Sequence record: MZ234033.1
Length of the DNA: 51,299 bases
Source of the DNA: Escherichia phage vB_EcoS-G3B1
Strand: one strand, 5' to 3'
The notes under the pieces are model-generated. The model was given only the letters and a program-made list of their open reading frames with translations, searched no databases and was not told the origin of the DNA. Below are positions 1-51,299 of this stretch, in pieces. The position numbers and the translations under genes were made by a program. How positions within the stretch are numbered: position 1 is the stretch's first letter; the number at the start of each line of letters is the position of its first letter.

Positions 1-127
1 AAGGAGTCAATAAGCCACGATGAATTTATGGGGATCTTGTTGTTCGGTGACTCTTATCGTCTTGGTTACAAGATGGTTGAGCTTGTGGAAGAGGTCAAAT
101 TCTAAATAGCACTTTTTGTTAAAACTC
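1..127. repeat. Terminal 127-bp sequence identical to 51173-51299 (circular closure overlap)
   Basis: First 127 bases of the window are repeated exactly at its end; the ORF 51092..51277 reads through the junction. Confidence 0.9.
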
Positions 128-149: not shown

Positions 150-203
150 AAATCACATAGGGCGGCACTGCGTCGCCCACAAAACCAATCAGGAGAAAGC
201 ACC

Positions 204-1097
204 ATGTTAAAACTTGCTGACATTAAATTCCCGATCACCTTCGAATCTCGCGGCATTGGTCATTACATTTTTACCGATGAAAAAACATGCCATAAGGTTG
301 ATATGAATAGCGACAAACTAAGCCCATCAGACATGGAGATTGAACACTTTATTGATGCGCACAATACGCAGTACAACGCACTTAAAGACTATGGCTATGC
401 AATGCCAGGATATACCAGCTTCCACTACAAGCCATATAAAGGCCAGGTGTTGCCAGTGCGCTCACCGGAACGCGCAGAGATTCCGATGGTCGAGATGAAA
501 ACATGCGACTATAAAAAGCTGTGGTGCTTAAGTGTTGACAATATCAAGTATCCGATCACGTTCTACACGGTTGGTAATTCAACGATTCGATTCACATCGC
601 GCGACAATGGAGTTTATAGCGATGGTACGAAATCAGAGTTGAAAGTTGATTTCTTTGTTAACGGTCACAATAGATACAATCCGCACAACGAAGAGGATAA
701 AGTGTACTACGTGGAAGACATTACAAAACACTTGTTTGGAGAAACTCCATTCGGCGGCGGTAAGACGTCAATTCAAAAAATCATTGGCGATGAGATCCAC
801 AAAGCGGCTGCCGAAATGAAAGCGCCTGGAGGCTGGCGCATTGACAAGAGCGCATTTGCAAATCAAGAAATCGTAACGCAGGGCGCAATTGAAGATATGC
901 CAGTTGCAGCCACTCTAAAAGGAGTCCGGCTTGATGACGGCACCTGGTATGAAGTAACGGCTACGCCAAAGACGATCGAGATTCATGATGACGTTGTTAT
1001 CCTTCTGCTTCACTACGGCGGCTATAAAAACCGGACGATTGCAGGTGAGATCAGCATTAAGCGCGGAACGATGGTTAAGTGGAAGGTCAAAGTGTAA
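204..1097 (+). CDS. Hypothetical protein with internal duplication (297 aa)
   Basis: ATG preceded by AGGAG; two related segments (IKFPITFESRGIGHYIFTDEKT / IKYPITFYTVGNSTIRFTSRDNG); stop TAA embedded in cassette motif. Confidence 0.6.
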   Translation: MLKLADIKFPITFESRGIGHYIFTDEKTCHKVDMNSDKLSPSDMEIEHFIDAHNTQYNALKDYGYAMPGYTSFHYKPYKGQVLPVRSPERAEIPMVEMKTCDYKKLWCLSVDNIKYPITFYTVGNSTIRFTSRDNGVYSDGTKSELKVDFFVNGHNRYNPHNEEDKVYYVEDITKHLFGETPFGGGKTSIQKIIGDEIHKAAAEMKAPGGWRIDKSAFANQEIVTQGAIEDMPVAATLKGVRLDDGTWYEVTATPKTIEIHDDVVILLLHYGGYKNRTIAGEISIKRGTMVKWKVKV

Positions 1098-2393: not shown

Positions 2394-2551
2394 CTTGGTT
2401 GCTTTTAATATTTGTCACAAGTTACAACTCCGCAGCTATTGAGTCGCAGGAGTTCCACGGCGAATCAAGATGCCAGGAAGCGCGAAAGCAAGTTATTCTC
2501 CACATGTCAGATAGTGGGAAGGATGTAACAGCGTTATGCGTTCGTAAATAG
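2390..2551 (+). CDS. Small hydrophobic-N-terminus peptide (53 aa)
   Basis: ATGA overlap with upstream stop; uninterrupted 54 codons translated by hand; stop TAG sits inside cassette motif; below the 60-aa ORF-track threshold. Confidence 0.3.
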   Translation: MTWLLLIFVTSYNSAAIESQEFHGESRCQEARKQVILHMSDSGKDVTALCVRK

Positions 2552-2596
2552 CACTTTTTGCAAAAAACAGATCATCGGGCTTGCTGTATAGTAAGC
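2546..2596 (+). promoter_or_regulatory. Cassette motif variant + hairpin with TATAGT
   Basis: AAATAGCACTTTTTGCAAAAAAC at 2546-2568; hairpin GGGCTTGCTGTATAGTAAGCCC. Confidence 0.5.
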
Positions 2597-2623
2597 CCAT
2601 CAACAACAAACGAGGATTAAATC

Positions 2624-5183: not shown

Positions 5184-5232
5184 TAGCACTTTTTGTTAAA
5201 ACTTCCGCAAGGGCATTTGGTAAAGTGCCCTT
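5182..5232 (+). promoter_or_regulatory. Cassette motif + hairpin
   Basis: AATAGCACTTTTTGTTAAAAC at 5182-5202; hairpin AAGGGCATTTGGTAAAGTGCCCTT. Confidence 0.55.
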
Positions 5233-7805: not shown

Positions 7806-9373
7806 TGATCATATGGGAAGATTTGACGGCGGCGCAAAAGCGAGCCATTAAAGAAATCAGTGAGCATTCATTCGAAAAGATGATCAGAATCTGGTTTCAG
7901 TTATTGCAGGGGCAAAAATTCCAGAGCAACTGGCATTTTAGCTTATTGTGCAGTGAGGTAGAGAAGATCATCAATGGAGAGTCGCAGAATGTGATTTTCA
8001 ACATTACGCCAGGTAGCGGTAAGACTGAGATTTTCTCGATCCACATGTCACCCTACGCGTCATTGAAAAGTCGGAAGGTGAGAAACCTTAACCTTTCGTT
8101 TAGTGATGGACTTGTCCAGCAAAACAGCAACAGGATAAAGGAGATTATCGGTTCTCCTGAGTGGCAAGAGCTATGGCCAGGAAAACTGGCAAAGGCGAGC
8201 GCAAAAGATCTCATAGTTACGGATGGCGGCAAGGTTAAATTGCAAGTTAACTCACGTTCTATTGGCGGACAGGTAACAGGTTTGCGTGGCGGCTATATGG
8301 ATGATGGTTTTACTGGTATGCTGGTTCTGGACGATCCAGACAAGCCTGATGATATGCTTTCTAAGGTCAAGCGTGAGGCGATCCACATGAGGTTAAAAAA
8401 CACAGTGCGATCTCGTCGAATGAAAGACACCACGCCAATTGTTATGGTGCAACAGCGACTACACGTTAATGATTCCACCTGGTTCATGCTTAATGGCGGG
8501 ATGGGCGGTATTGAGTTTAAAGTTGTGAGCATTCCTGCGCTGGTTACGAAAGAATACCGCGAAACGCTTCCTGATTGGTTGAAGCCTGAATTTGATCGTG
8601 ATGTGTTGTCAAGTAAGCCAGTGATGATAGATGGAGTTGCTCATTATTCATTTTGGCCTGCAAAGGAAAGCGCGGAGGAATTGCTTGCATTGCGCAATGC
8701 AGATCCTTACACGTTCGCCAGCCAATACCAACAACAACCCATCGCGCTTGGCGGCAACGTGTTTAAAACAGAGTGGTTCCAGTATTACGGCAGCGGCGAA
8801 AAATGCGCACTTCCTAAACCGGATCGCTTTGAATACACATTTATTACTGGAGATACAGCACAGAAGGCCGGAGAGCTTAACGACTATTCAGTTTTTTGTT
8901 ATTGGGGGATGTATAAAAATCGCGTTTACTTCATTGATGGCATTCGCGGCAAGTGGGAAGCGCCAGATCTTGAATTAAATTTTATTGCCTTCGTTAATCA
9001 GTGCTGGAAGCGCAATAAGGAGTGTGGCAGCTTGCGACGTATTCACATTGAGGATAAGGCCAGCGGCACGGGTTTGATTCAGGGGGCCAAAAAGAAGATC
9101 CCGATTGATATAAATCCCGTTCAGCGAAGCAATGACAAGGTAACGCGAGCAATGGACGCCGCGCCAGTAATGAGGGCAGGACGTGTGGCACTGCCAGAAA
9201 GTCATCCCATGTTACCTGAGATACTGGCAGAGGTTGCAGCGTTCACTTTTGACGATTCTCATCCCCATGATGATATTGTCGATAATATAGTTGATGCTGT
9301 TAACGTCGAAATGAACTTGGCTGATGATCCTGTAGCAAGGATGAAAAAGCTGGCTGGTCTACGCAATAAATAG
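7805..9373 (+). CDS. Terminase large subunit
   Basis: Walker A TPGSGKT, 522 aa, followed by portal gene. Confidence 0.8.
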   Translation: MIIWEDLTAAQKRAIKEISEHSFEKMIRIWFQLLQGQKFQSNWHFSLLCSEVEKIINGESQNVIFNITPGSGKTEIFSIHMSPYASLKSRKVRNLNLSFSDGLVQQNSNRIKEIIGSPEWQELWPGKLAKASAKDLIVTDGGKVKLQVNSRSIGGQVTGLRGGYMDDGFTGMLVLDDPDKPDDMLSKVKREAIHMRLKNTVRSRRMKDTTPIVMVQQRLHVNDSTWFMLNGGMGGIEFKVVSIPALVTKEYRETLPDWLKPEFDRDVLSSKPVMIDGVAHYSFWPAKESAEELLALRNADPYTFASQYQQQPIALGGNVFKTEWFQYYGSGEKCALPKPDRFEYTFITGDTAQKAGELNDYSVFCYWGMYKNRVYFIDGIRGKWEAPDLELNFIAFVNQCWKRNKECGSLRRIHIEDKASGTGLIQGAKKKIPIDINPVQRSNDKVTRAMDAAPVMRAGRVALPESHPMLPEILAEVAAFTFDDSHPHDDIVDNIVDAVNVEMNLADDPVARMKKLAGLRNK

Positions 9374-9426
9374 CACTAATTGCTAAAAAGTTATATAATC
9401 AAGGCTGGATTTTTCCAGCCTTTTTT
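9368..9426 (+). promoter_or_regulatory. Cassette motif variant (AAATAGCACTAATTGCTAAAAAG), TATAAT at about 9394-9399, and hairpin plus T-run
   Basis: Motif starts on TerL stop codon; hairpin GGCTGGATTTTTCCAGCC followed by TTTTTT also acts as likely terminator. Confidence 0.5.
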
Positions 9427-9443
9427 ATTATGGAGATTTGACG

Positions 9444-13975: not shown

Positions 13976-13993
13976 CATAAAAACATCTTGCAC

Positions 13994-14044
13994 GTTTAAC
14001 AAAAAGTGCTATCATCTAGGCCGTTACATTTAACGGCCTTTTAT
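13994..14044 (+). promoter_or_regulatory. Inverted cassette motif (GTTTAACAAAAAGTGCTAT) plus hairpin and T-tract upstream of major capsid gene
   Basis: Reverse-complement form of the dispersed motif; hairpin GGCCGTTACATTTAACGGCC followed by TTTTAT. Confidence 0.5.
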
Positions 14045-14056
14045 GGAGGAAACAAA

Positions 14057-15028
14057 ATGGCTAAAAAATACGATGAATTAGATGCTACTATTGTAGCAAA
14101 TCATTTGCAGATTCAGGGTGTCAAGACCGACGCTTCTGATATGGGTATTTGGACCGCTCAAGAGCTACACAAGATCCGCTCAACCGCATACGAGAAAGAA
14201 TATCCGGCAGGTTCCGCGCTTCGCGTATTCCCTGTAACAAACGAGCTTTCTGATACTGATAAGACTTTTGAGTATCAGACTTTTGATAAGGTTGGCTACG
14301 CGAAAATTATCGCCGACTACACCGACGATCTGCCGACCGTGGACGCGCTGATGACTTCTGAATTTGGCAAGGTGTTCCGCCTGGGTAACGCTTTTCTGAT
14401 CTCCATTGATGAGATTAAAGCAGGTCAGCGAACTGGCAAGAGCCTGTCAACTCGCAAGGCTAACGCCGCGCAAAATGCGCATGATCAGTTGATTAACTTC
14501 CTGGTGTTCAAAGGTTCCAAGCCTCATAAGATCGTTTCCGTTTTCGATCACCCTAACCTTACGAAAATTGTTTCTAAAGGATGGATGAGCAAGGATGGAA
14601 GCACCAAGTTCCCTGATGTGGCAAGCGATGAACTGGAGGCTGCAATCGAGACTATCGAGGAAGTAACCAAAGGTCAGCACCGCGCGACTAACATCCTGAT
14701 CCCGCCGTCCATGCGTAAAGTCTTGACGGTTCGAATGGAAAATACCACTGAAAGTTATCTTGAATACTTCCAGAAGCAAAACGGCGGCATCACTATCGAC
14801 TCTATCGCAGAGCTTGAGGATATTGACGGCAAAGGTACGAAAGGTTGCTTGGTTTACGAAAAAGATCCAATGAACATGAGCATTGAGATTCCAGAAGCGT
14901 TTAACATGCTTCCGGCGCAGCCAAAAGACCTTCATTTCAAGGTTCCTTGCACTTCCAAGTGTACTGGCCTTACTATTTACCGTCCGTTTACGATGGTGCT
15001 TATTACTGGCTTGAAAAAGTCAGCTTAA
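14057..15028 (+). CDS. Major capsid protein (putative)
   Basis: RBS GGAGGAAA before ATG 14057 (ORF-track start 14006 trimmed); 323 aa; flanked by terminators. Confidence 0.6.
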   Translation: MAKKYDELDATIVANHLQIQGVKTDASDMGIWTAQELHKIRSTAYEKEYPAGSALRVFPVTNELSDTDKTFEYQTFDKVGYAKIIADYTDDLPTVDALMTSEFGKVFRLGNAFLISIDEIKAGQRTGKSLSTRKANAAQNAHDQLINFLVFKGSKPHKIVSVFDHPNLTKIVSKGWMSKDGSTKFPDVASDELEAAIETIEEVTKGQHRATNILIPPSMRKVLTVRMENTTESYLEYFQKQNGGITIDSIAELEDIDGKGTKGCLVYEKDPMNMSIEIPEAFNMLPAQPKDLHFKVPCTSKCTGLTIYRPFTMVLITGLKKSA

Positions 15029-17681: not shown

Positions 17682-17705
17682 AAGGGGCGTTGCGCCCCTT
17701 TTTTC
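17682..17705 (+). terminator. Rho-independent terminator after major tail gene
   Basis: Hairpin GGGGCGTTGCGCCCC then TTTTTTC. Confidence 0.65.
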
Positions 17706-17744
17706 ATTCCTGTAAAATCAATCTATCAAATAAATTAATTCCAC

Positions 17745-17763
17745 TTTTAACAAAAAGTGCTAT
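17745..17763 (+). promoter_or_regulatory. Inverted cassette motif (TTTTAACAAAAAGTGCTAT) abutting RBS of tail chaperone gene
   Basis: Reverse-complement form of dispersed motif followed directly by AAGGAGA and ATG 17778. Confidence 0.5.
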
Positions 17764-23648: not shown

Positions 23649-23696
23649 TGCATTTATAATGTGCAAACCAAGAAACAGCACAAAAGGTTAAAAGTC

Positions 23697-28496: not shown

Positions 28497-28542
28497 AACT
28501 ATACACGATCTTGGGCATCGCGTTTAGCAAAAAGTGCTATTT
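28497..28542 (-). promoter_or_regulatory. Cassette motif (minus orientation) with TATAGT -10-like element for lipoprotein operon
   Basis: Minus-strand reading CAAATAGCACTTTTTGCTAAAC...TATAGT...AAGGAG ATG. Confidence 0.5.
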
Positions 28543-35596: not shown

Positions 35597-36073
35597 TTAG
35601 CTATTCGTGCTGTTATCACCTTTGTAGAATCGTCCGCCTGGTTCGTAGTCTGAATTTTTGACTACGCGCAACATATCGTATTTGTCGCAACGGGTAGTAA
35701 GAGGCTTACCGTTAGAATCAAACCGCAGATCTGGACGACAAAATGATGCGCGGTATCCTTTGCATCCATTATATTTGTAGTCGTTATGCACCTTTTGTGC
35801 TCCAGCGGCTGAAATCATACCACGCTTTCGCCACTGGTTAACGACTTGCTGAGATACGCGCAGACGTCGAGCCATAGCAGGAACGCCGCCGTAATACTCG
35901 ATCAGAATGTCAAGGCGAGATTTCAGGCTTGCTTTTACCTCATCTCGCAGGATAAGAAATCCGGTTCGGTGTTTTCGTGGTTTTTTGTCTTTACCTCGTC
36001 GCGTTCCGTTGTTACCGTTAATAGTGCGCTTGTCGATCTCACCCGTAGATACTGCAATTCGTGCATCTTTCAT
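35597..36073 (-). CDS. HTH DNA-binding protein (Cro/CI-type-like)
   Basis: Segment GGVPAMARRLRVSQQVVNQWRKRG typical of helix-turn-helix; 158 aa. Confidence 0.45.
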   Translation of the reverse strand: MKDARIAVSTGEIDKRTINGNNGTRRGKDKKPRKHRTGFLILRDEVKASLKSRLDILIEYYGGVPAMARRLRVSQQVVNQWRKRGMISAAGAQKVHNDYKYNGCKGYRASFCRPDLRFDSNGKPLTTRCDKYDMLRVVKNSDYEPGGRFYKGDNSTNS

Positions 36074-36084
36074 CTAGTCACCTC

Positions 36085-36160
36085 ATAGCATTTTTTGTTA
36101 AAACAGTTTATTGTAATGAGTCTATTATATACTCCAAATGGCATTTTTTAAAGGTTTAAG
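36085..36160 (+). promoter_or_regulatory. Divergent regulatory region: cassette motif variant (ATAGCATTTTTTGTTAAAAC) serving helicase (+) and abutting RBS of HTH gene (-)
   Basis: Motif lies 11 bp from the HTH gene start and about 55 bp upstream of helicase ATG with TATTATAT -10-like element. Confidence 0.45.
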
Positions 36161-39387: not shown

Positions 39388-39645
39388 ATGAAAAAAGAGA
39401 GAAGCGTTTATTTAAATGAAACTGGCGAGTGGTTGTTATTTCGCGCTATGGTGTGCGATGCACTTGATAAAAACCCTAACGTGAAAAAGATGATTGATTG
39501 CGATCCGTGGGAATTTTCAAGCGCATTAGATATGAGCTTTGATGAGACAAGAAAACTCCCTCTTGAAAAATGGCACGAACAAATCAGAAATGATATGCAA
39601 GAGTTTGTAGATTCGTGGAATTTTCAGAACGGAATGATCCACTAA
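39388..39645 (+). CDS. Hypothetical protein (85 aa)
   Basis: ORF directly after Dam gene; stop TAA embedded in cassette motif. Confidence 0.5.
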   Translation: MKKERSVYLNETGEWLLFRAMVCDALDKNPNVKKMIDCDPWEFSSALDMSFDETRKLPLEKWHEQIRNDMQEFVDSWNFQNGMIH

Positions 39646-39707
39646 TAGCACTTTTTGTTAAAACGCCCGGCATTTTGTCGGGCATAATTATTTCATCGAA
39701 ACGAACG
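39644..39707 (+). promoter_or_regulatory. Cassette motif + hairpin + CATAAT + conserved leader CATCGAAACGAAC
   Basis: AATAGCACTTTTTGTTAAAAC, hairpin GCCCGGCATTTTGTCGGGC, CATAAT, then TCATCGAAACGAACGTGAGGAAA. Confidence 0.55.
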
Positions 39708-39720
39708 TGAGGAAATGAAA

Positions 39721-39900
39721 ATGGTAGTATATAGCAAGAAAGCATTTGACCAGGCGCAACAAGCCGCACGAGAGGCGGTAAAAGGTGGAACGAAAAACAA
39801 TATGCAGCTTGATTGGGGCGCTGCAATGATTCTACTTCGCGTTGCATATGGTCACTACCCATTAGAATTTGCGGAGGCATATTATAAGCATGAAGGTTGA
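39721..39900 (+). CDS. Small hypothetical protein (59 aa)
   Basis: RBS GAGGAAATGAAA before ATG 39721. Confidence 0.45.
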   Translation: MVVYSKKAFDQAQQAAREAVKGGTKNNMQLDWGAAMILLRVAYGHYPLEFAEAYYKHEG

Positions 39901-42845: not shown

Positions 42846-42907
42846 TTCGTTTCGATGAAACAAATATACCCGACACAAGGTCGGGAGTTTTAACAAAAAA
42901 TGCTATT
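42846..42907 (-). promoter_or_regulatory. Cassette motif variant + hairpin + TATATT + conserved CATCGAAACGAAC leader (minus)
   Basis: Minus-strand GGAATAGCATTTTTTGTTAAAAC, hairpin CCCGACCTTGTGTCGGG, TATATT, TTTCATCGAAACGAACC. Confidence 0.55.
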
Positions 42908-45014: not shown

Positions 45015-45070
45015 TGGGCCGTAAATTTTAACGGCCCAATACTACCCCGTTTTGTCAAAAAGTGCTATTT
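45015..45070 (-). promoter_or_regulatory. Cassette motif variant + hairpin (minus)
   Basis: Minus-strand AAATAGCACTTTTTGACAAAAC then hairpin GGGCCGTTAAAATTTACGGCCC then RBS. Confidence 0.5.
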
Positions 45071-45669: not shown

Positions 45670-45689
45670 GATTAGATCTCCTTTGTTTG

Positions 45690-45744
45690 TTCGATGTGAT
45701 TATGCCAGGTTTTTACACCTGGCTTTTAACAAAAAGTGCTATTT
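45690..45744 (-). promoter_or_regulatory. Cassette motif + hairpin + CATAAT + CACATCGAAC leader (minus)
   Basis: Minus-strand AAATAGCACTTTTTGTTAAAA, hairpin GCCAGGTGTAAAAACCTGGC, CATAATCACATCGAACAAAC. Confidence 0.55.
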
Positions 45745-47599: not shown

Positions 47600-47660
47600 T
47601 GTTGTCGATGGGTGTAATATACCATTCAGGCGCACATCGTTTTTAACGAAAAGTGCTATT
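47600..47660 (-). promoter_or_regulatory. Cassette motif variant + TATATT + CCCATCGACAAC leader (minus)
   Basis: Minus-strand AATAGCACTTTTCGTTAAAA ... GGTATATTACACCCATCGACAACAAGCGAGGA. Confidence 0.5.
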
Positions 47661-48094: not shown

Positions 48095-48167
48095 ATCCTC
48101 GCATTCGTTGTCGATGCGTGTAATGTACAGGAATACGAGGATTGAGTTTTAACAAAAAGTGCTATTT
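48095..48167 (-). promoter_or_regulatory. Cassette motif + TACATT + CGCATCGACAACGA leader (minus)
   Basis: Minus-strand AAATAGCACTTTTTGTTAAAAC ... TACATTACACGCATCGACAACGAATGCGAGGA. Confidence 0.55.
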
Positions 48168-49391: not shown

Positions 49392-49411
49392 TTACTATCT
49401 CCTGAGCGGTT

Positions 49412-49472
49412 CGTTTCGATGTGTGTAATGTACCCGATCAGGTGGCCTGAGTTTTAACAAAAAGTGCTATTT
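49412..49472 (-). promoter_or_regulatory. Cassette motif + TACATT + CACATCGAAACGAAC leader (first minus cassette)
   Basis: Minus-strand AAATAGCACTTTTTGTTAAAAC ... GGGTACATTACACACATCGAAACGAACCGCTCAGGAG. Confidence 0.55.
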
Positions 49473-50084
49473 GACAGTTAGCACCAGGATTGTGATCGAA
49501 ATAATCAAAAGTAATCATTCGTAATCAAATCACGTCAAAATGATGATTGTCTTTGCAAATTTGATGAGAAAAGTAATCACGTTTAATCATTGGTTGCAGG
49601 GGAGATAGTGAAACCTTCCCCTCTTGCCTCACTTTTCCGCCTGGCTGTCAGTGGTTGTTGTCTTTTGTTCACCACTGTTACCGATTTCATGCGGCGTGTT
49701 TCCGCGCGGTTTTCCGGTGTATCGAAAACGGAAAAAACAAAAAAAATCCTTTATAATACATTGAAAATAAAGATTATTTATTTATATATATCTATAATGT
49801 TTTCTTTTTGTTCTCACTGTTACAGTGCTTTTTGTTGGGTGTGGTGTGGTTGTGTGTTGGTATATATGGATAGTTGCGCGCGCGGCGGATTGCATATGTA
49901 TATATACTTTTTCCGGCGGATTGCGTTAACAGCGTGAACAGAAAAATAACAGCACTGAAATCAATAACTTGCGCATGATTTTGTAGTTTTTCGATATTGG
50001 TAACGTTTTGAATACAACAAAAACATTGACACGCACCAAATAGCTTTTATAATGCGCCAACAGTCAACAACTGGAGGAAAGGAA
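49473..50084. promoter_or_regulatory. AT-rich divergent intergenic island with GTAATCA iterons, GT-rich tract and near-consensus sigma70 promoter (TTGACA 50026-50031, TATAAT 50048-50053)
   Basis: About 610 bp without credible ORF; shares GTTTTCCGGTGT(T)ATCGAA, GT-rich and TGTATGTATATA blocks with 28543-28967. Confidence 0.55.
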
Positions 50085-50549
50085 ATGGAACAGAAGACCA
50101 CTAAGGACTATTGCGATTGGCTTCGCGAGCTTGGTCGCCGCCTGGCTAGTGGCGATATTGAAGAGTATAAAATGTCACTAATTGACCTGGCCGGAATGTT
50201 AAGCGGTGACGACTGCTACAAGATCACGCGCAGTTCATCCTACAGCCGGACCATTATCAACCGCGTTCCAGAAGTAAGGGCCGCAGGTCGGGTAAGCATC
50301 AAGGTAGAGGAAACGGAAGATGATAAATTTTACGTTTTCCGCATGGTCCGCGAATCGAAAAGGAAAATCATCACACCCGAAGAATTGCCAGCCATCAAGG
50401 CAAGGGCGATCAAAAAGTTTGCCGATCGCATACTGGCAGCAATCCCGAATATCGTGGACCTGGAAGGGGATAAACTGGCTGGGGCTTGCGAGGGTGTAAG
50501 CCGCTACCAGGATATGATCCGCGAAATCATCAAAGAGGAAGAGCAATGA
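50085..50549 (+). CDS. Hypothetical early protein (154 aa)
   Basis: RBS GGAGGAAAGGAA before ATG 50085, directly downstream of consensus promoter; ORF-track start 50052 lies inside the -10. Confidence 0.55.
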   Translation: MEQKTTKDYCDWLRELGRRLASGDIEEYKMSLIDLAGMLSGDDCYKITRSSSYSRTIINRVPEVRAAGRVSIKVEETEDDKFYVFRMVRESKRKIITPEELPAIKARAIKKFADRILAAIPNIVDLEGDKLAGACEGVSRYQDMIREIIKEEEQ

Positions 50550-50818
50550 AAAAGGCATTAATCAGCGTTTTGGCGGCAATGGCATTCCTGACCGGATGCA
50601 AAGAAGATGGCGCGCATGTTGGCAATGTGCAGATGGCTAACCCTGGCGATGACTACAGCGTAAGGGAGCTATTCACCGCTGACGGTTGCACCGTTTACCG
50701 ATTCTATGACGATCGCACTGTTTACTTCACCAACTGCAAGGGCACTACTAGCTGGGAAGTGTCGAAAAGCAATGGCAAAGGCACGAAGACAGAACATATG
50801 ACCGTCGAGACAAAATAG
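50546..50818 (+). CDS. Early lipoprotein (90 aa; candidate superinfection exclusion or receptor-masking protein)
   Basis: Signal peptide with lipobox LTGC (MKKALISVLAAMAFLTGC); ATGA overlap with upstream gene. Confidence 0.55.
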   Translation: MKKALISVLAAMAFLTGCKEDGAHVGNVQMANPGDDYSVRELFTADGCTVYRFYDDRTVYFTNCKGTTSWEVSKSNGKGTKTEHMTVETK

Positions 50819-50874
50819 CACTTTTTGTTAAAACGCCAGGCGCAAAGCCTGGCATAATAGCCTCATCGAAACGA
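50813..50874 (+). promoter_or_regulatory. Cassette motif + hairpin + CATAAT + CATCGAAACGAGATTG leader
   Basis: AAATAGCACTTTTTGTTAAAAC on stop codon, hairpin GCCAGGCGCAAAGCCTGGC, CATAAT, CTCATCGAAACGAGATTGAGGAAA. Confidence 0.55.
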
Positions 50875-51091: not shown

Positions 51092-51277
51092 ATGAAAACG
51101 AAACTAGTCCATAAGTCAGAAATCAAGATCGGCGATACTGTGATTCACAACGGCGAGCTTAGAACGGTTGGCAAGGAGTCAATAAGCCACGATGAATTTA
51201 TGGGGATCTTGTTGTTCGGTGACTCTTATCGTCTTGGTTACAAGATGGTTGAGCTTGTGGAAGAGGTCAAATTCTAA
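51092..51277 (+). CDS. Small hypothetical protein (61 aa), runs across the circular junction
   Basis: RBS AGGTGAATAG; C-terminal ELVEEVKF resembles the EFEEVK ends of 1171..1634 proteins; stop inside cassette motif. Confidence 0.5.
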   Translation: MKTKLVHKSEIKIGDTVIHNGELRTVGKESISHDEFMGILLFGDSYRLGYKMVELVEEVKF

Positions 51278-51299
51278 ATAGCACTTTTTGTTAAAACTC

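What the first reader, a model, noticed from the sequence alone, without database searches (positions are those of the whole stretch)
39684..39720. Conserved 5' leader box CATCGA(A/C)A(A/C)GA downstream of the -10-like element in at least seven cassettes
After the ATAAT/TACATT hexamer, several cassettes share the same sequence just before the RBS: + strand at about 39695 and 50862 (CATCGAAACGA), minus-strand cassettes at about 42849, 45690, 47600, 48100 and 49412 (CATCGAAACGAAC, CATCGACAAC variants). Conservation of transcribed leader sequence across unrelated downstream genes suggests a shared RNA-level signal (translation control, RNase processing site or small-protein/sRNA binding site), not just a promoter.
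Basis: seen in the sequence. Interest (0 to 1): 0.65.

Follow-up and report, generated by a model that had tools for sequence, protein, structure and literature searches.

The report
Start region of phage marbox promoters
The repeated CATCGAAACGA box is real, but it is the transcription-start end of a standard promoter cassette that T1-like phages place before about 18 gene groups; the cassette's upstream half matches the binding site of the host stress regulators MarA/SoxS/Rob, so these phages may wire their gene expression into a host stress circuit.

Summary
CATCGAAACGA occurs four times exactly (0.14 expected), with four close variants, always after a -10-like hexamer. The window is a complete T1-like coliphage genome (Drexlerviridae, Warwickvirus).

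The box is positions -1 to +10 of a roughly 62-bp cassette: a 20-bp upstream box, 18 bp of free spacer (usually a GC-rich hairpin), a -10 hexamer, 5 nt, then CAT. In 189 non-redundant cassettes from about 30 T1-like phages, CATCGA sits exactly 5 nt after the -10 in 53 of 56 cases. Its distance to the Shine-Dalgarno sequence varies from 6 to 27 nt. The leaders are unstructured, show no covariation and match no Rfam family. The box is therefore tied to the promoter and start site, not to the ribosome-binding site. About a third of cassettes keep the 11-mer almost exactly, so it is a selected module whose specific role is unresolved.

The upstream box was published for phage TLS as a direct repeat of unknown function. 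It matches the E. coli marbox perfectly and has the same orientation and 18-bp spacing as micF, a class II MarA/SoxS/Rob promoter. No MarA homologue is encoded by the phage. I found no paper linking the two. Binding is untested.

The parts
39645..39664 (+). Upstream box of the focal cassette, ATAGCACTTTTTGTTAAAAC. It is marbox-like and spans predicted -50 to -31.
   Evidence: Perfect match to GCAnnWWnTGnnAAA (consensus from PMC12052159).
39665..39683 (+). Spacer hairpin GCCCGGCATTTTGTCGGGC (class A). It fills the 18-bp spacer, and its last base is the first base of the -10 hexamer.
   Evidence: -14.1 kcal/mol, z -3.46. One search calls it terminator-like. The orthologous T1 hairpin is annotated as a terminator.
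39683..39688 (+). -10 hexamer CATAAT, 18 bp after the upstream box.
   Evidence: The spacing is fixed in 311 of 389 unique cassettes.
39694..39704 (+). Leader box CATCGAAACGA, positions -1 to +10. The predicted start is A at 39695.
39709..39723 (+). Shine-Dalgarno GAGGA (39709-39713) and start codon ATG (39721) of a 59-aa gene. The predicted leader is 26 nt.
50815..50874 (+). Cassette with the exact box: upstream box 50815-50834, -10 CATAAT 50853-50858, box 50864-50874.
42847..42906 (-). Cassette with the exact box: upstream box 42906-42887, -10 TATATT 42868-42863, box 42857-42847.
49411..49470 (-). Cassette with the exact box: upstream box 49470-49451, -10 TACATT 49432-49427, box 49421-49411.
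48106..48165 (-). Cassette with the variant box CATCGACAACG (48116-48106).
47600..47659 (-). Cassette with the variant box CATCGACAACA (47610-47600).
45686..45742 (-). Cassette with the variant box CATCGAACAAA (45696-45686). This box starts 2 nt, not 5 nt, after the -10 CATAAT.
2548..2608 (+). Cassette with the variant box CATCAACAACA (2598-2608). It has a class B hairpin, GGGCTT...AAGCCC, flanking the -10.
106..125 (+). Upstream box of a cassette that lacks the leader box. The same kind of cassette starts at 1098, 3868, 5183, 36085 and 38574 on the + strand, and at 28540 and 45068 on the - strand.

Best explanation
The box is the start-site and initial-transcribed segment (-1 to +10) of a standard expression cassette that T1-like phages place in front of about 18 gene blocks.

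The cassette runs in this order:
- the stop codon of the upstream gene;
- a 20-bp asymmetric upstream box, ATAGCAC(K)WWTTG(Y)TAAAAC;
- exactly 18 bp of sequence-free spacer, usually a GC-rich hairpin;
- a -10 hexamer preceded by G at -14;
- 5 nt;
- C(-1) A(+1) TCGAAACGA;
- a short (22-31 nt), A-rich, unstructured leader;
- the SD and the start codon.

Shown here: the register, the fixed spacings, the lack of RNA structure, the family-wide conservation, and the sequence and geometric identity of the upstream box with a host class II marbox promoter (micF).

Inferred:
- Transcription starts at the A of CAT.
- Host RNA polymerase is brought to these promoters, which lack a -35 element, by a host MarA/SoxS/Rob-type activator on the upstream box. 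Rob is the most likely, because from memory it is the constitutively abundant one.
- The box works mainly at initiation, by fixing the start at a favoured C-A step and supplying a purine-rich initial sequence. It also provides the unpaired 5' end of a very short leader that runs straight into the SD.
- It is not a folded RNA element and not an operator anchored to the ribosome-binding site.

Why one third of cassettes keep the 11-mer almost exactly is not explained by these general needs. It remains open.
For: - **Register:** the distance from upstream box to -10 is the same in 311 of 389 unique cassettes. CATCGA lies 5 nt after the -10 in 53 of 56 cases, against 6-27 nt to the SD.
- **Logo of 189 non-redundant cassettes:** C at -1 in 73%, A at +1 in 80%, then T 57%, C 53%, G 52%, A 64-73% and C 50%. 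The spacer (-30 to -18) and positions +18 to +25 carry almost no information.
- **No RNA structure:** the four exact-box leaders fold at -0.7 to -3.5 kcal/mol with z +0.8 to +1.25. The family-wide subset averages -1.4 kcal/mol with z +0.7. Mutual information is found only between neighbouring positions.
- **Marbox match:** the published core 5'-gcannwwntgnnaaa-3' (PMC12052159) has 19 perfect matches in the window against 1.47 expected. Three box positions were left free in my collection scan. The two that the marbox specifies as W are W in 98-100% of cassettes; the one it leaves free is not limited to A or T (it is T or G).
- **micF read directly from the E. coli genome:** ACAGCACTGAATGTCAAAAC, 18 nt, TAGAAT, 7 nt, then +1. 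Orientation and spacing are the same as in the phage cassette. The marbox of the mar operon itself matches the phage box variant ATAGCACTTTTTGCTAAAAC (seen in T1 and TLS; window copies mostly have T at -37) at 16 of 20 positions.
- **Class II rules from the literature:** forward orientation, centre near -41, no -35 element, canonical -10 (PMC10268841; PMC8811837). All are met.
- **Promoter census:** the standard -35/-10 scan misses these promoters, and only one perfect canonical promoter exists in the window.
- **No phage MarA:** tblastn finds no MarA homologue in the window, T1 or TLS.
- **Conservation:** the same cassette is present in T1, TLS and KP36.
Against: - No transcript 5' ends are available for any T1-like phage. 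The held library has no such study, so +1 is predicted only from -10 geometry.
- Binding of MarA, SoxS or Rob is untested.
- Activation by these factors at host promoters is modest: about twofold for RamA at acrA and micF, and the paper calls this comparable with MarA (PMC8811837). Dependence of a virulent phage on them has never been reported.
- The upstream box is also a partial palindrome, TAGCA-N5-TG(Y)TA.
- The Hamming distribution to CATCGAAACGA is bimodal (27, 21 and 15 cassettes at 0, 1 and 2 mismatches, against 0.5, 4.6 and 16.8 expected). This is more than a soft initiation optimum would give, and it hints at a specific reader of the 11-mer.
- Orthologous promoters in T1, TLS and KP36 drift away from the consensus (CATAGAAACGA, TAACGGAAAAC, CATCAACCAAT).
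Confidence: 0.5

Rival explanations
1. The first ten nucleotides of the mRNA (5'-AUCGAAACGA) are an RNA-level signal read at the 5' end by a phage or host protein. It could be a translational repressor or enhancer, an RNase, or a factor that protects 5' ends. It would coordinate a subset of mostly small early genes.
For: - A discrete subclass keeps the 11-mer nearly exact: 63 of 189 cassettes within 2 mismatches, against 22 expected.
- The motif often continues as CGAAACGAAAC(G)GAG up to the SD.
- The box is single-stranded in every fold, so it is accessible.
- In the window it mostly precedes small genes of unknown function.
Against: - C at -1, which is not transcribed, is as conserved as the transcribed bases.
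- Spacing to the SD and start codon is variable.
- There is no structure or covariation, no Rfam hit, no complementary sequence in the phage genome and no rRNA complementarity above shuffles.
- No candidate RNA-binding protein was identified.
Confidence: 0.2
2. The box is a DNA operator overlapping +1. A phage-encoded regulator, for example the Cro-type HTH protein at 35597-36073(-), binds it to switch off a temporal class of promoters.
For: - The subclass is discrete.
- The box is phase-locked to the promoter.
- TCG-N3-CGA is a short inverted repeat inside the box.
- The phage encodes a conserved HTH regulator.
Against: - The inverted repeat has only 3-bp arms and no extended symmetry.
- The box is absent from the regulator's own promoter region, 36074-36160.
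- Orthologous promoters lose the box without losing the cassette.
- The box is not linked to any upstream-box subtype or hairpin class.
Confidence: 0.1
3. The box has no function of its own. It is inherited with the cassette as new genes are acquired and cassettes are copied or homogenised by recombination between the conserved flanks. This would resemble the promoter/stem-loop cassettes described for T4-type phages (from memory).
For: - Some window copies are clearly paralogous beyond the box: 39645 and 42906 share TTTCATCGAAACGAAC and similar hairpin stems.
- 47659, 48165 and 49470 share TAYATTACACNCATCGA.
- The phage encodes RecE/Erf-type recombination proteins.
Against: - The 18-bp spacer between two conserved blocks is almost information-free while the box is conserved. 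Simple hitch-hiking would keep both.
- The exact 11-mer recurs in cassettes that differ at more than 15 of 66 surrounding positions, and in phages only about 60-70% identical.
Confidence: 0.1
4. This rival concerns the upstream half of the cassette. The 20-bp box is read not by host MarA/SoxS/Rob but by the phage's own dimeric Cro-type HTH regulator. That protein would bind the pseudo-palindrome TAGCA-N5-TG(Y)TA, centred at -42, and act as a class II-type activator. The regulator gene is made first from its canonical sigma-70 promoter.
For: - Five-bp inverted arms are present, perfect when -37 is C (56% of cassettes).
- The centre at -42 suits any class II activator.
- The regulator is conserved in the window, T1, TLS and KP36.
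- It has a near-consensus promoter of its own: window 36152-36124(-) at 10/12, KP36 36523(-) at 11/12.
- It has a Cro-type HTH.
Against: - Invariant positions are asymmetric. C-44, A-34 and A-33 have no symmetric partners. Position -37 is only Y whereas its partner G-47 is 100% conserved. All of this is what the marbox consensus specifies.
- The cassette is strictly oriented.
- The putative recognition helix differs between the four phages (for example SQQVVNQWRKR against NLKTVWGWKER, overall 50-63% identity) while the box is invariant.
- The earliest genes also carry the box, and they must be read before any phage protein exists.
Confidence: 0.3

Closest known systems
E. coli and Salmonella class II mar/sox/rob promoters (micF type)
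   Same: A 20-bp asymmetric marbox in the same orientation, overlapping the -35 position, centred near -41. It lies 18 bp from a canonical -10, and there is no -35 hexamer.
   Different: Host sites usually deviate from the consensus, whereas the phage has about 18 perfect copies in 51 kb. The phage promoters carry a hairpin in or around the spacer and a conserved start region. Activator binding is untested. micF has no CATCGA-like start region.
The 21-nt direct repeats of phage TLS, also noted for T1, Rtp and Rogue1 (PMC11447400)
   Same: This is the same element: aaATAGCACnnnTTGnTAAAA, co-oriented with genes and about 76 nt upstream of start codons. Here, 50 nt of promoter plus a leader of about 26 nt gives the same figure.
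   Different: That paper left the function open (stoperator, enhancer site or UP element). In the section I read, it did not describe the fixed -10 partner, the marbox match, the hairpins or the CATCGA start box.
T4 middle promoters (MotA box plus -10, sigma appropriation). From memory.
   Same: A phage promoter class without a -35 element, defined by an activator box at fixed distance from a -10 and repeated many times in the genome.
   Different: The T4 box is read by phage-encoded MotA with AsiA, is centred near -30 and has a different sequence. No MotA or AsiA analogue was identified here.
Conserved initial transcribed sequences of phage promoter families (T7 +1 to +6; T5 early promoters). 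From memory.
   Same: Conservation extends past +1 and is phase-locked to the promoter. It is known to affect start-site choice and promoter escape.
   Different: Those cases involve a phage RNA polymerase (T7) or very strong sigma-70 promoters with -35 elements (T5). The sequence here is unrelated, and only a third of cassettes keep it.
RNA-level leader signals such as T4 RegA operators or lambda nut/boxA. From memory.
   Same: Short shared sequences in the 5' regions of many phage mRNAs.
   Different: RegA sites are anchored on the start codon, and nut sites include a hairpin. This box is anchored on the -10, is unstructured, and resembles neither sequence.

Membership tests
Class II mar/sox/rob (marbox) promoter | Marbox sequence: core 5'-GCAnnWWnTGnnAAA-3' (PMC12052159). 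The 20-mer AYnGCACnnWnnRYYAAAYn is quoted from memory (Martin et al. 1999). | tested here: met
   19 perfect core matches in the window against 1.47 expected. 19 matches to the 20-mer with at most 1 mismatch against 1.11 expected. In the family logo, every specified position is 95-100% conserved and the free positions vary.
Class II mar/sox/rob (marbox) promoter | Asymmetric site in the 'forward' orientation relative to the core promoter. | tested here: met
   The strand and reading direction are the same as the micF marbox relative to its -10 and +1. All well-formed window cassettes are co-oriented with the downstream gene.
Class II mar/sox/rob (marbox) promoter | Site overlaps the -35 position, centred near -41. 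| tested here: met
   The box spans predicted -50 to -31. Box-to-hexamer spacing is 18 bp, identical to micF, and fixed in 311 of 389 cassettes. This depends on a predicted, not measured, start site.
Class II mar/sox/rob (marbox) promoter | No recognisable -35 hexamer, with a canonical -10. | tested here: met
   Positions -35 to -30 read AAAACn. The -10 consensus is TAtaaT with G at -14. The standard -35/-10 scan does not find these promoters. The literature rule is in PMC10268841.
Class II mar/sox/rob (marbox) promoter | Bound and activated by MarA, SoxS or Rob. | not testable with these tools
   This needs EMSA or footprinting, in vitro transcription and host mutants. Indirect evidence only: no MarA homologue in the phage.
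T1-like 21-nt direct repeat (TLS DR) | Consensus aaATAGCACnnnTTGnTAAAA, in the direction of transcription, about 76 nt before start codons. | tested here: met
Structured cis-regulatory leader RNA (riboswitch, attenuator or other Rfam family) | Conserved secondary structure with covariation, or a match to a curated family. | tested here: not met
   Leaders fold at -0.7 to -3.5 kcal/mol with z above 0. There is no pair covariation and no Rfam hit.
Translational operator anchored on the ribosome-binding site (RegA type) | Fixed position relative to the SD or start codon. | tested here: not met
   Distance from box to SD is 6-27 nt and to the start codon 22-34 nt, whereas distance from the -10 to the box is 5 nt in 53 of 56 cases.
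Sigma-70-dependent promoter-proximal pause element (lambda PR' type) | A -10-like hexamer (A at position 2, T at position 6) in the initial transcribed region. | tested here: not met
   No hexamer within CATCGAAACGAA has both A2 and T6, read directly from the sequences. The rule itself is from memory.
Intrinsic terminator (for the class A spacer hairpins) | GC-rich stem-loop followed by a U-rich tract. | tested here: inconclusive
   Two window hairpins pass the scan (39665, 42885). Orthologues are annotated as terminators in the T1 and KP36 records. However, tails are not T-richer than in cassettes without hairpins, and class B hairpins have no U tract.
UP element | A/T-only sequence at about -59 to -38 contacted by the alpha C-terminal domain (consensus from memory). 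| tested here: not met
   The invariant GCAC and TG are not A/T, and the box lies 8-9 bp closer to the -10.

The most novel reading that the evidence does not exclude
T1-like phages (Drexlerviridae, including Klebsiella Webervirus) run nearly all of their transcription through perfect class II marboxes. They would therefore borrow the host activators Rob, MarA, SoxS and RamA. Phage gene expression would then be tuned by the same bile-salt, antibiotic and oxidative-stress signals that switch on multidrug resistance. The conserved CATCGAAACGA start region would be a co-evolved part of this activator-dependent promoter, or a second control layer on a subset of it.
Probability: 0.45. Interest if true: 0.85.

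Novelty: new variant of a known kind. Interest (0 to 1): 0.66.

Why it matters
T1-like phages are classic laboratory contaminants and common therapy candidates, for example Klebsiella Webervirus. How they are transcribed has stayed obscure: genome papers find only a handful of sigma-70 promoters plus a mysterious 21-nt repeat.

Reading that repeat as a marbox, joined to a -10 and a conserved start box, gives a complete and testable promoter model for about 18 transcription units per genome. If host MarA/SoxS/Rob/RamA drive these promoters, phage productivity would depend on the host's stress and antibiotic-resistance state. Strains that over-express mar or ram could be better or worse hosts, which matters for combining phages with antibiotics.

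The cassette is also a very compact natural expression unit, about 76 nt from stop codon to start codon. The leader box itself is of moderate interest. It defines a discrete subclass of these promoters whose specific reader, if there is one, is unknown.

Tried and rejected
- **RNA structure in the leader.** Rejected. ViennaRNA on 189 leaders and on the four exact copies shows no structure, and mutual information shows no pairing.
- **Known RNA families and tRNAs.** None found.
- **Trans-acting antisense partner in the phage genome.** The reverse complement occurs only at the cassettes themselves.
- **Pairing with 16S or 23S rRNA.** No better than shuffled leaders.
- **A phage-encoded MarA-like protein.** tblastn with MarA finds nothing. 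The annotated regulator is Cro-type, not AraC-type.
- **Association of the box with upstream-box subtype (TTT, GAA, TAA) or hairpin class.** None.
- **Selection for a U tract after class A hairpins.** Not seen.
- **Class I marbox reading of the two reverse-oriented boxes (13993-14012, 17744-17763).** Rejected, because there is no room for a core promoter before the downstream start codons.
- **TCGA as a methylation or restriction target.** TCGA is merely under-represented genome-wide (125 found, 194 expected). Not pursued.
- **Literature.** I found no transcript map of any T1-like phage. No paper co-mentions MarA/SoxS/Rob with T1-like phages. 'Marbox' appears with 'bacteriophage' only incidentally, judging from titles and abstracts. 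The T1 genome paper (PubMed 14972552) is not held.

Full report
**What the window is.** An 8-kb stretch of the window is 99% identical to Escherichia phages orkinos, tonn, swan01, ExeQuayColi and others. These belong to Drexlerviridae, Tempevirinae, genus Warwickvirus. The first 127 bases repeat at the end, so the window is one complete, circularly permuted genome of 51,172 bp.

**Checking the observation.** CATCGAAACGA occurs exactly four times: 39694(+), 50864(+), 42847-42857(-) and 49411-49421(-). Only 0.14 matches are expected from dinucleotide shuffles. An eighth copy, CATCAACAACA, lies at 2598-2608. If position is ignored and two mismatches are allowed, the motif is no commoner than chance. 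All of the signal therefore sits in copies that follow a -10-like hexamer.

**The box belongs to a larger cassette.** Every copy lies at the downstream end of a repeated unit. A 20-bp upstream box, ATAGCACTTTTTGTTAAAAC, occurs 19 times in the window with at most 3 mismatches (0.03 expected). It is followed by 18 bp of unrelated sequence, a -10-like hexamer and 5 nt, and in 8 of about 17 well-formed units by the CAT box. Predicted leaders are 22-31 nt long, and the stop codon of the upstream gene usually abuts the upstream box.

**The cassette is family-wide.** T1 and TLS have the same architecture, and so does Klebsiella phage KP36, genus Webervirus. To quantify this I scanned IMG/VR for ATAGCACNNNTTGNTAAAA. 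That collected 389 unique cassettes from about 30 genomes of T1-like size. In 311 of them the best -10 lies at one and the same distance from the upstream box.

**Family logo.** I reduced the set to 189 cassettes that differ from each other at more than 15 of 66 positions, and aligned them on the -10.
- The upstream box carries 1.3-2.3 bits per position.
- The spacer (-30 to -18) carries almost nothing.
- G at -14 is present in 83%.
- The -10 reads TAtaaT.
- The discriminator region is C-rich.
- The start region reads C(-1) 73%, A(+1) 80%, T 57%, C 53%, G 52%, A 64-73% at +5 to +7, and C 50% at +8.

53 cassettes carry CATCGA and 27 carry the full 11-mer in exactly this register.

**Promoter-anchored or RBS-anchored?** Among cassettes with CATCGA anywhere in the 31 nt after the -10, 53 of 56 have it exactly 5 nt after the hexamer. 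Its distance to the SD ranges from 6 to 27 nt, and to the start codon from 22 to 34 nt. Elsewhere in the cassette windows it occurs 3 times in 20,034 positions. With the hexamer taken as -12 to -7, the A of CAT is the seventh base downstream. That is the usual start position, and C-A (pyrimidine then purine) is the favoured start step; CAT is the classical E. coli start consensus (from memory). C at -1 would not be transcribed, yet it is 98% conserved in the subclass. This points to a DNA-level constraint on at least the first part of the box.

**No RNA structure or pairing partner.**
- Leaders from +1 to +40 are on average less structured than shuffles. The CATCGA subset has mean MFE -1.4 kcal/mol and z +0.7.
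- The four exact-box leaders fold at -0.7 to -3.5 kcal/mol with the box unpaired.
- Mutual information is confined to neighbouring positions, which reflects sub-motifs rather than base pairs.
- No Rfam family matches anywhere in the window.
- No complementary sequence exists elsewhere in the phage.
- Complementarity to 16S or 23S rRNA does not exceed that of shuffled controls.

**The box is more than a soft preference.** The Hamming distance to CATCGAAACGA is bimodal. There are 27, 21 and 15 cassettes at 0, 1 and 2 mismatches, against 0.5, 4.6 and 16.8 expected if columns were independent. A second broad group lies at 4-9 mismatches. In the subclass the motif often continues as CGAAACGAAAC(G)GAG into the SD. 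The subclass is not tied to any upstream-box subtype or hairpin class. Orthologous promoters in T1, TLS and KP36 drift between CATCGAAACGA, CATAGAAACGA, CATCAACCAAT and others. About a third of cassettes therefore carry a discrete, selected 11-mer whose specific reader, if any, I could not identify.

**What the upstream box is.** The 2024 TLS re-annotation described it as a 21-nt direct repeat, aaATAGCACnnnTTGnTAAAA. That paper reports 21 copies, co-oriented with genes and about 76 nt before start codons, also seen in T1, Rtp and Rogue1. It left the function open: stoperator, enhancer site or UP element (PMC11447400).

**The upstream box fits the E. coli marbox.** The marbox is the asymmetric site for the monomeric AraC-family activators MarA, SoxS and Rob.
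- The marbox core used by the Grainger laboratory, 5'-gcannwwntgnnaaa-3' (PMC12052159), has 19 perfect matches in the window against 1.47 expected.
- The 20-mer AYnGCACnnWnnRYYAAAYn (from memory, Martin et al. 1999) matches 19 times with at most 1 mismatch, against 1.11 expected.
- My collection scan left three box positions free. The two that the marbox specifies as W are A or T in 98-100% of cassettes; the one it leaves free is not limited to A or T (it is T or G). Position -37 is Y in 94%.

**Geometry compared with micF.** I read the archetypal class II promoter, micF, directly from the E. coli K-12 genome. It runs ACAGCACTGAATGTCAAAAC, 18 nt, TAGAAT, 7 nt, then +1. The phage cassette has the same orientation and the same 18-bp distance. 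The mar operon's own marbox, ATGCCACGTTTTGCTAAATC, matches the phage box variant ATAGCACTTTTTGCTAAAAC (seen in T1 and TLS; window copies mostly have T at -37) at 16 of 20 positions. Published rules for class II promoters are forward orientation, a site near -41 overlapping the -35 position, no recognisable -35 hexamer and a canonical -10 (PMC10268841; PMC8811837). All are met.

**Other promoters and regulators in the phage.**
- The ordinary -35/-10 scan does not find these promoters. The window has only one perfect canonical promoter, at 50026-50053.
- The phage encodes no MarA homologue.
- Its annotated regulator is a Cro-type single-HTH protein.
- No paper among the 8 million searched mentions MarA/SoxS/Rob together with T1-like phages.

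I therefore propose that these are class II marbox promoters served by host factors. Rob, which is constitutively abundant (from memory), is the obvious candidate for the first minutes of infection. This is an inference from sequence and geometry. Binding has not been tested.

**Main rival for the upstream box.** The box could instead be an operator for the phage Cro-type regulator. It contains TAGCA-N5-TG(Y)TA centred at -42. The regulator is conserved, and it has its own near-consensus promoter.

Against this rival:
- The invariant flanks are asymmetric (C-44, A-34, A-33).
- Position -37 is only Y whereas its partner G-47 is 100% conserved.
- The cassette is strictly oriented.
- The putative recognition helix differs between the four phages, which are 50-63% identical overall, while the box does not change.
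- Even the earliest genes carry the box.

I give this rival about 0.3.

**Hairpins (side finding, unexplained).**
- 160 of 189 cassettes fold at -4 kcal/mol or better between -31 and +6. The mean is -10.4 against -4.8 for shuffles.
- 90 of 189 have a perfect inverted repeat of at least 6 bp, against 12 of 189 shuffles.
- The dyad centres are sharply phased at two places.
- Class A is centred near -20.5, with the hairpin inside the spacer. Example: 39665-39683, -14.1 kcal/mol, z -3.46.
- Class B is centred near -12.5, with arms flanking the -10 and the 3' arm often reaching into CAT.
- Class A hairpins are annotated or predicted as terminators in the T1 and KP36 records and by the scan here. 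Their tails are not T-richer than in cassettes without hairpins.
- Class B hairpins have no U tract at all.

The hairpins may terminate or stabilise upstream transcripts while being squeezed into the free parts of the promoter. That explanation is not established.

**Verdict.** The box is real, non-random and family-wide. It is best read as the start-site and initial-transcribed module of a compact, activator-type promoter cassette, and not as a folded RNA signal or one anchored on the ribosome-binding site. A signal read at the 5' end of the RNA, or an operator at +1, remains possible for the well-conserved subclass. The more important result is the identity of the cassette's upstream half with the host marbox, which makes a specific and easily tested prediction about how T1-like phages are transcribed.

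Noticed in passing
window 39665-39683, 42869-42885, 50836-50852 (class A); 1117-1146, 2577-2598, 5208-5232, 45019-45042 (class B): GC-rich hairpins with different sequences occupy the free parts of most cassettes, in two phased geometries. In class A the hairpin lies inside the 18-bp spacer (centre about -20.5). In class B the arms flank the -10 hexamer (centre about -12.5). 90 of 189 cassettes have a perfect inverted repeat of at least 6 bp, against 12 of 189 shuffles. The function is unknown; candidates are a terminator, a 3' stabiliser for upstream transcripts, or an aid to DNA melting.
   Followed up: partly
window 17687-17763 (- strand): A reverse-oriented cassette (box 17763-17744, -10 TAGATT) sits in the + strand tail-gene block. 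It points at a bidirectional terminator hairpin (17687-17702) about 10 nt downstream of its predicted start. It could make an RNA of about 40 nt, antisense to the intergenic region after the major tail gene. T1 has the same arrangement (L002, about 18850, - strand).
   Followed up: partly
window 13993-14012 (- strand): A reverse-oriented perfect marbox with no usable -10 lies just upstream of a hairpin and the RBS of the + strand gene starting at 14057 (probably the major capsid gene; the T1 counterpart lies before the major head protein gene). It is conserved in T1 (15086) and TLS (15042). There is no room for a class I promoter, and its role is unknown.
   Followed up: partly
window 50026-50053 (+): This is the only perfect consensus sigma-70 promoter in the genome (TTGACA, 16 nt, TATAAT). 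It precedes a 154-aa gene of unknown function (50085-50549, phrog_4841), which may be an immediate-early gene.
   Followed up: partly
window 36074-36160: Divergent, overlapping promoters. The helicase cassette (box 36085-36104, -10 TATTAT 36123-36128) shares its -10 region, on the opposite strand, with a near-consensus sigma-70 promoter (36152-36124) for the Cro-type regulator gene 35597-36073(-). The same layout is seen in KP36.
   Followed up: partly
window 1-127 and 51173-51299: There is a 127-bp terminal direct repeat. The window is a whole circularly permuted genome of 51,172 bp, so the cassette at 106 and the one at 51278 are the same element.
   Followed up: yes
window 150-204: The cassette at 106 has no CAT box. 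Instead it has a 48-nt leader carrying a strong hairpin (GGGCGGCACTGCGTCGCCC) a few bases after the predicted start, possibly a 5' stabiliser.
   Followed up: no
window 9370-9440; L002 (T1) 8362: A perfect marbox is followed not by a spaced -10 but by a canonical terminator (GGCTGGATTTTTCCAGCC plus a T run) and then directly by the RBS of the next gene. In T1 a marbox abuts the start of the small terminase gene. These look like degenerate or re-used cassettes.
   Followed up: no
window 23675-23694; L002 25021; L003 24908: A marbox-like sequence (ACAGCACAAAAGGTTAAAAG) lies at the start of the large tail protein gene and is conserved in T1 and TLS. It appears to overlap that gene's RBS rather than form a promoter.
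   Followed up: no
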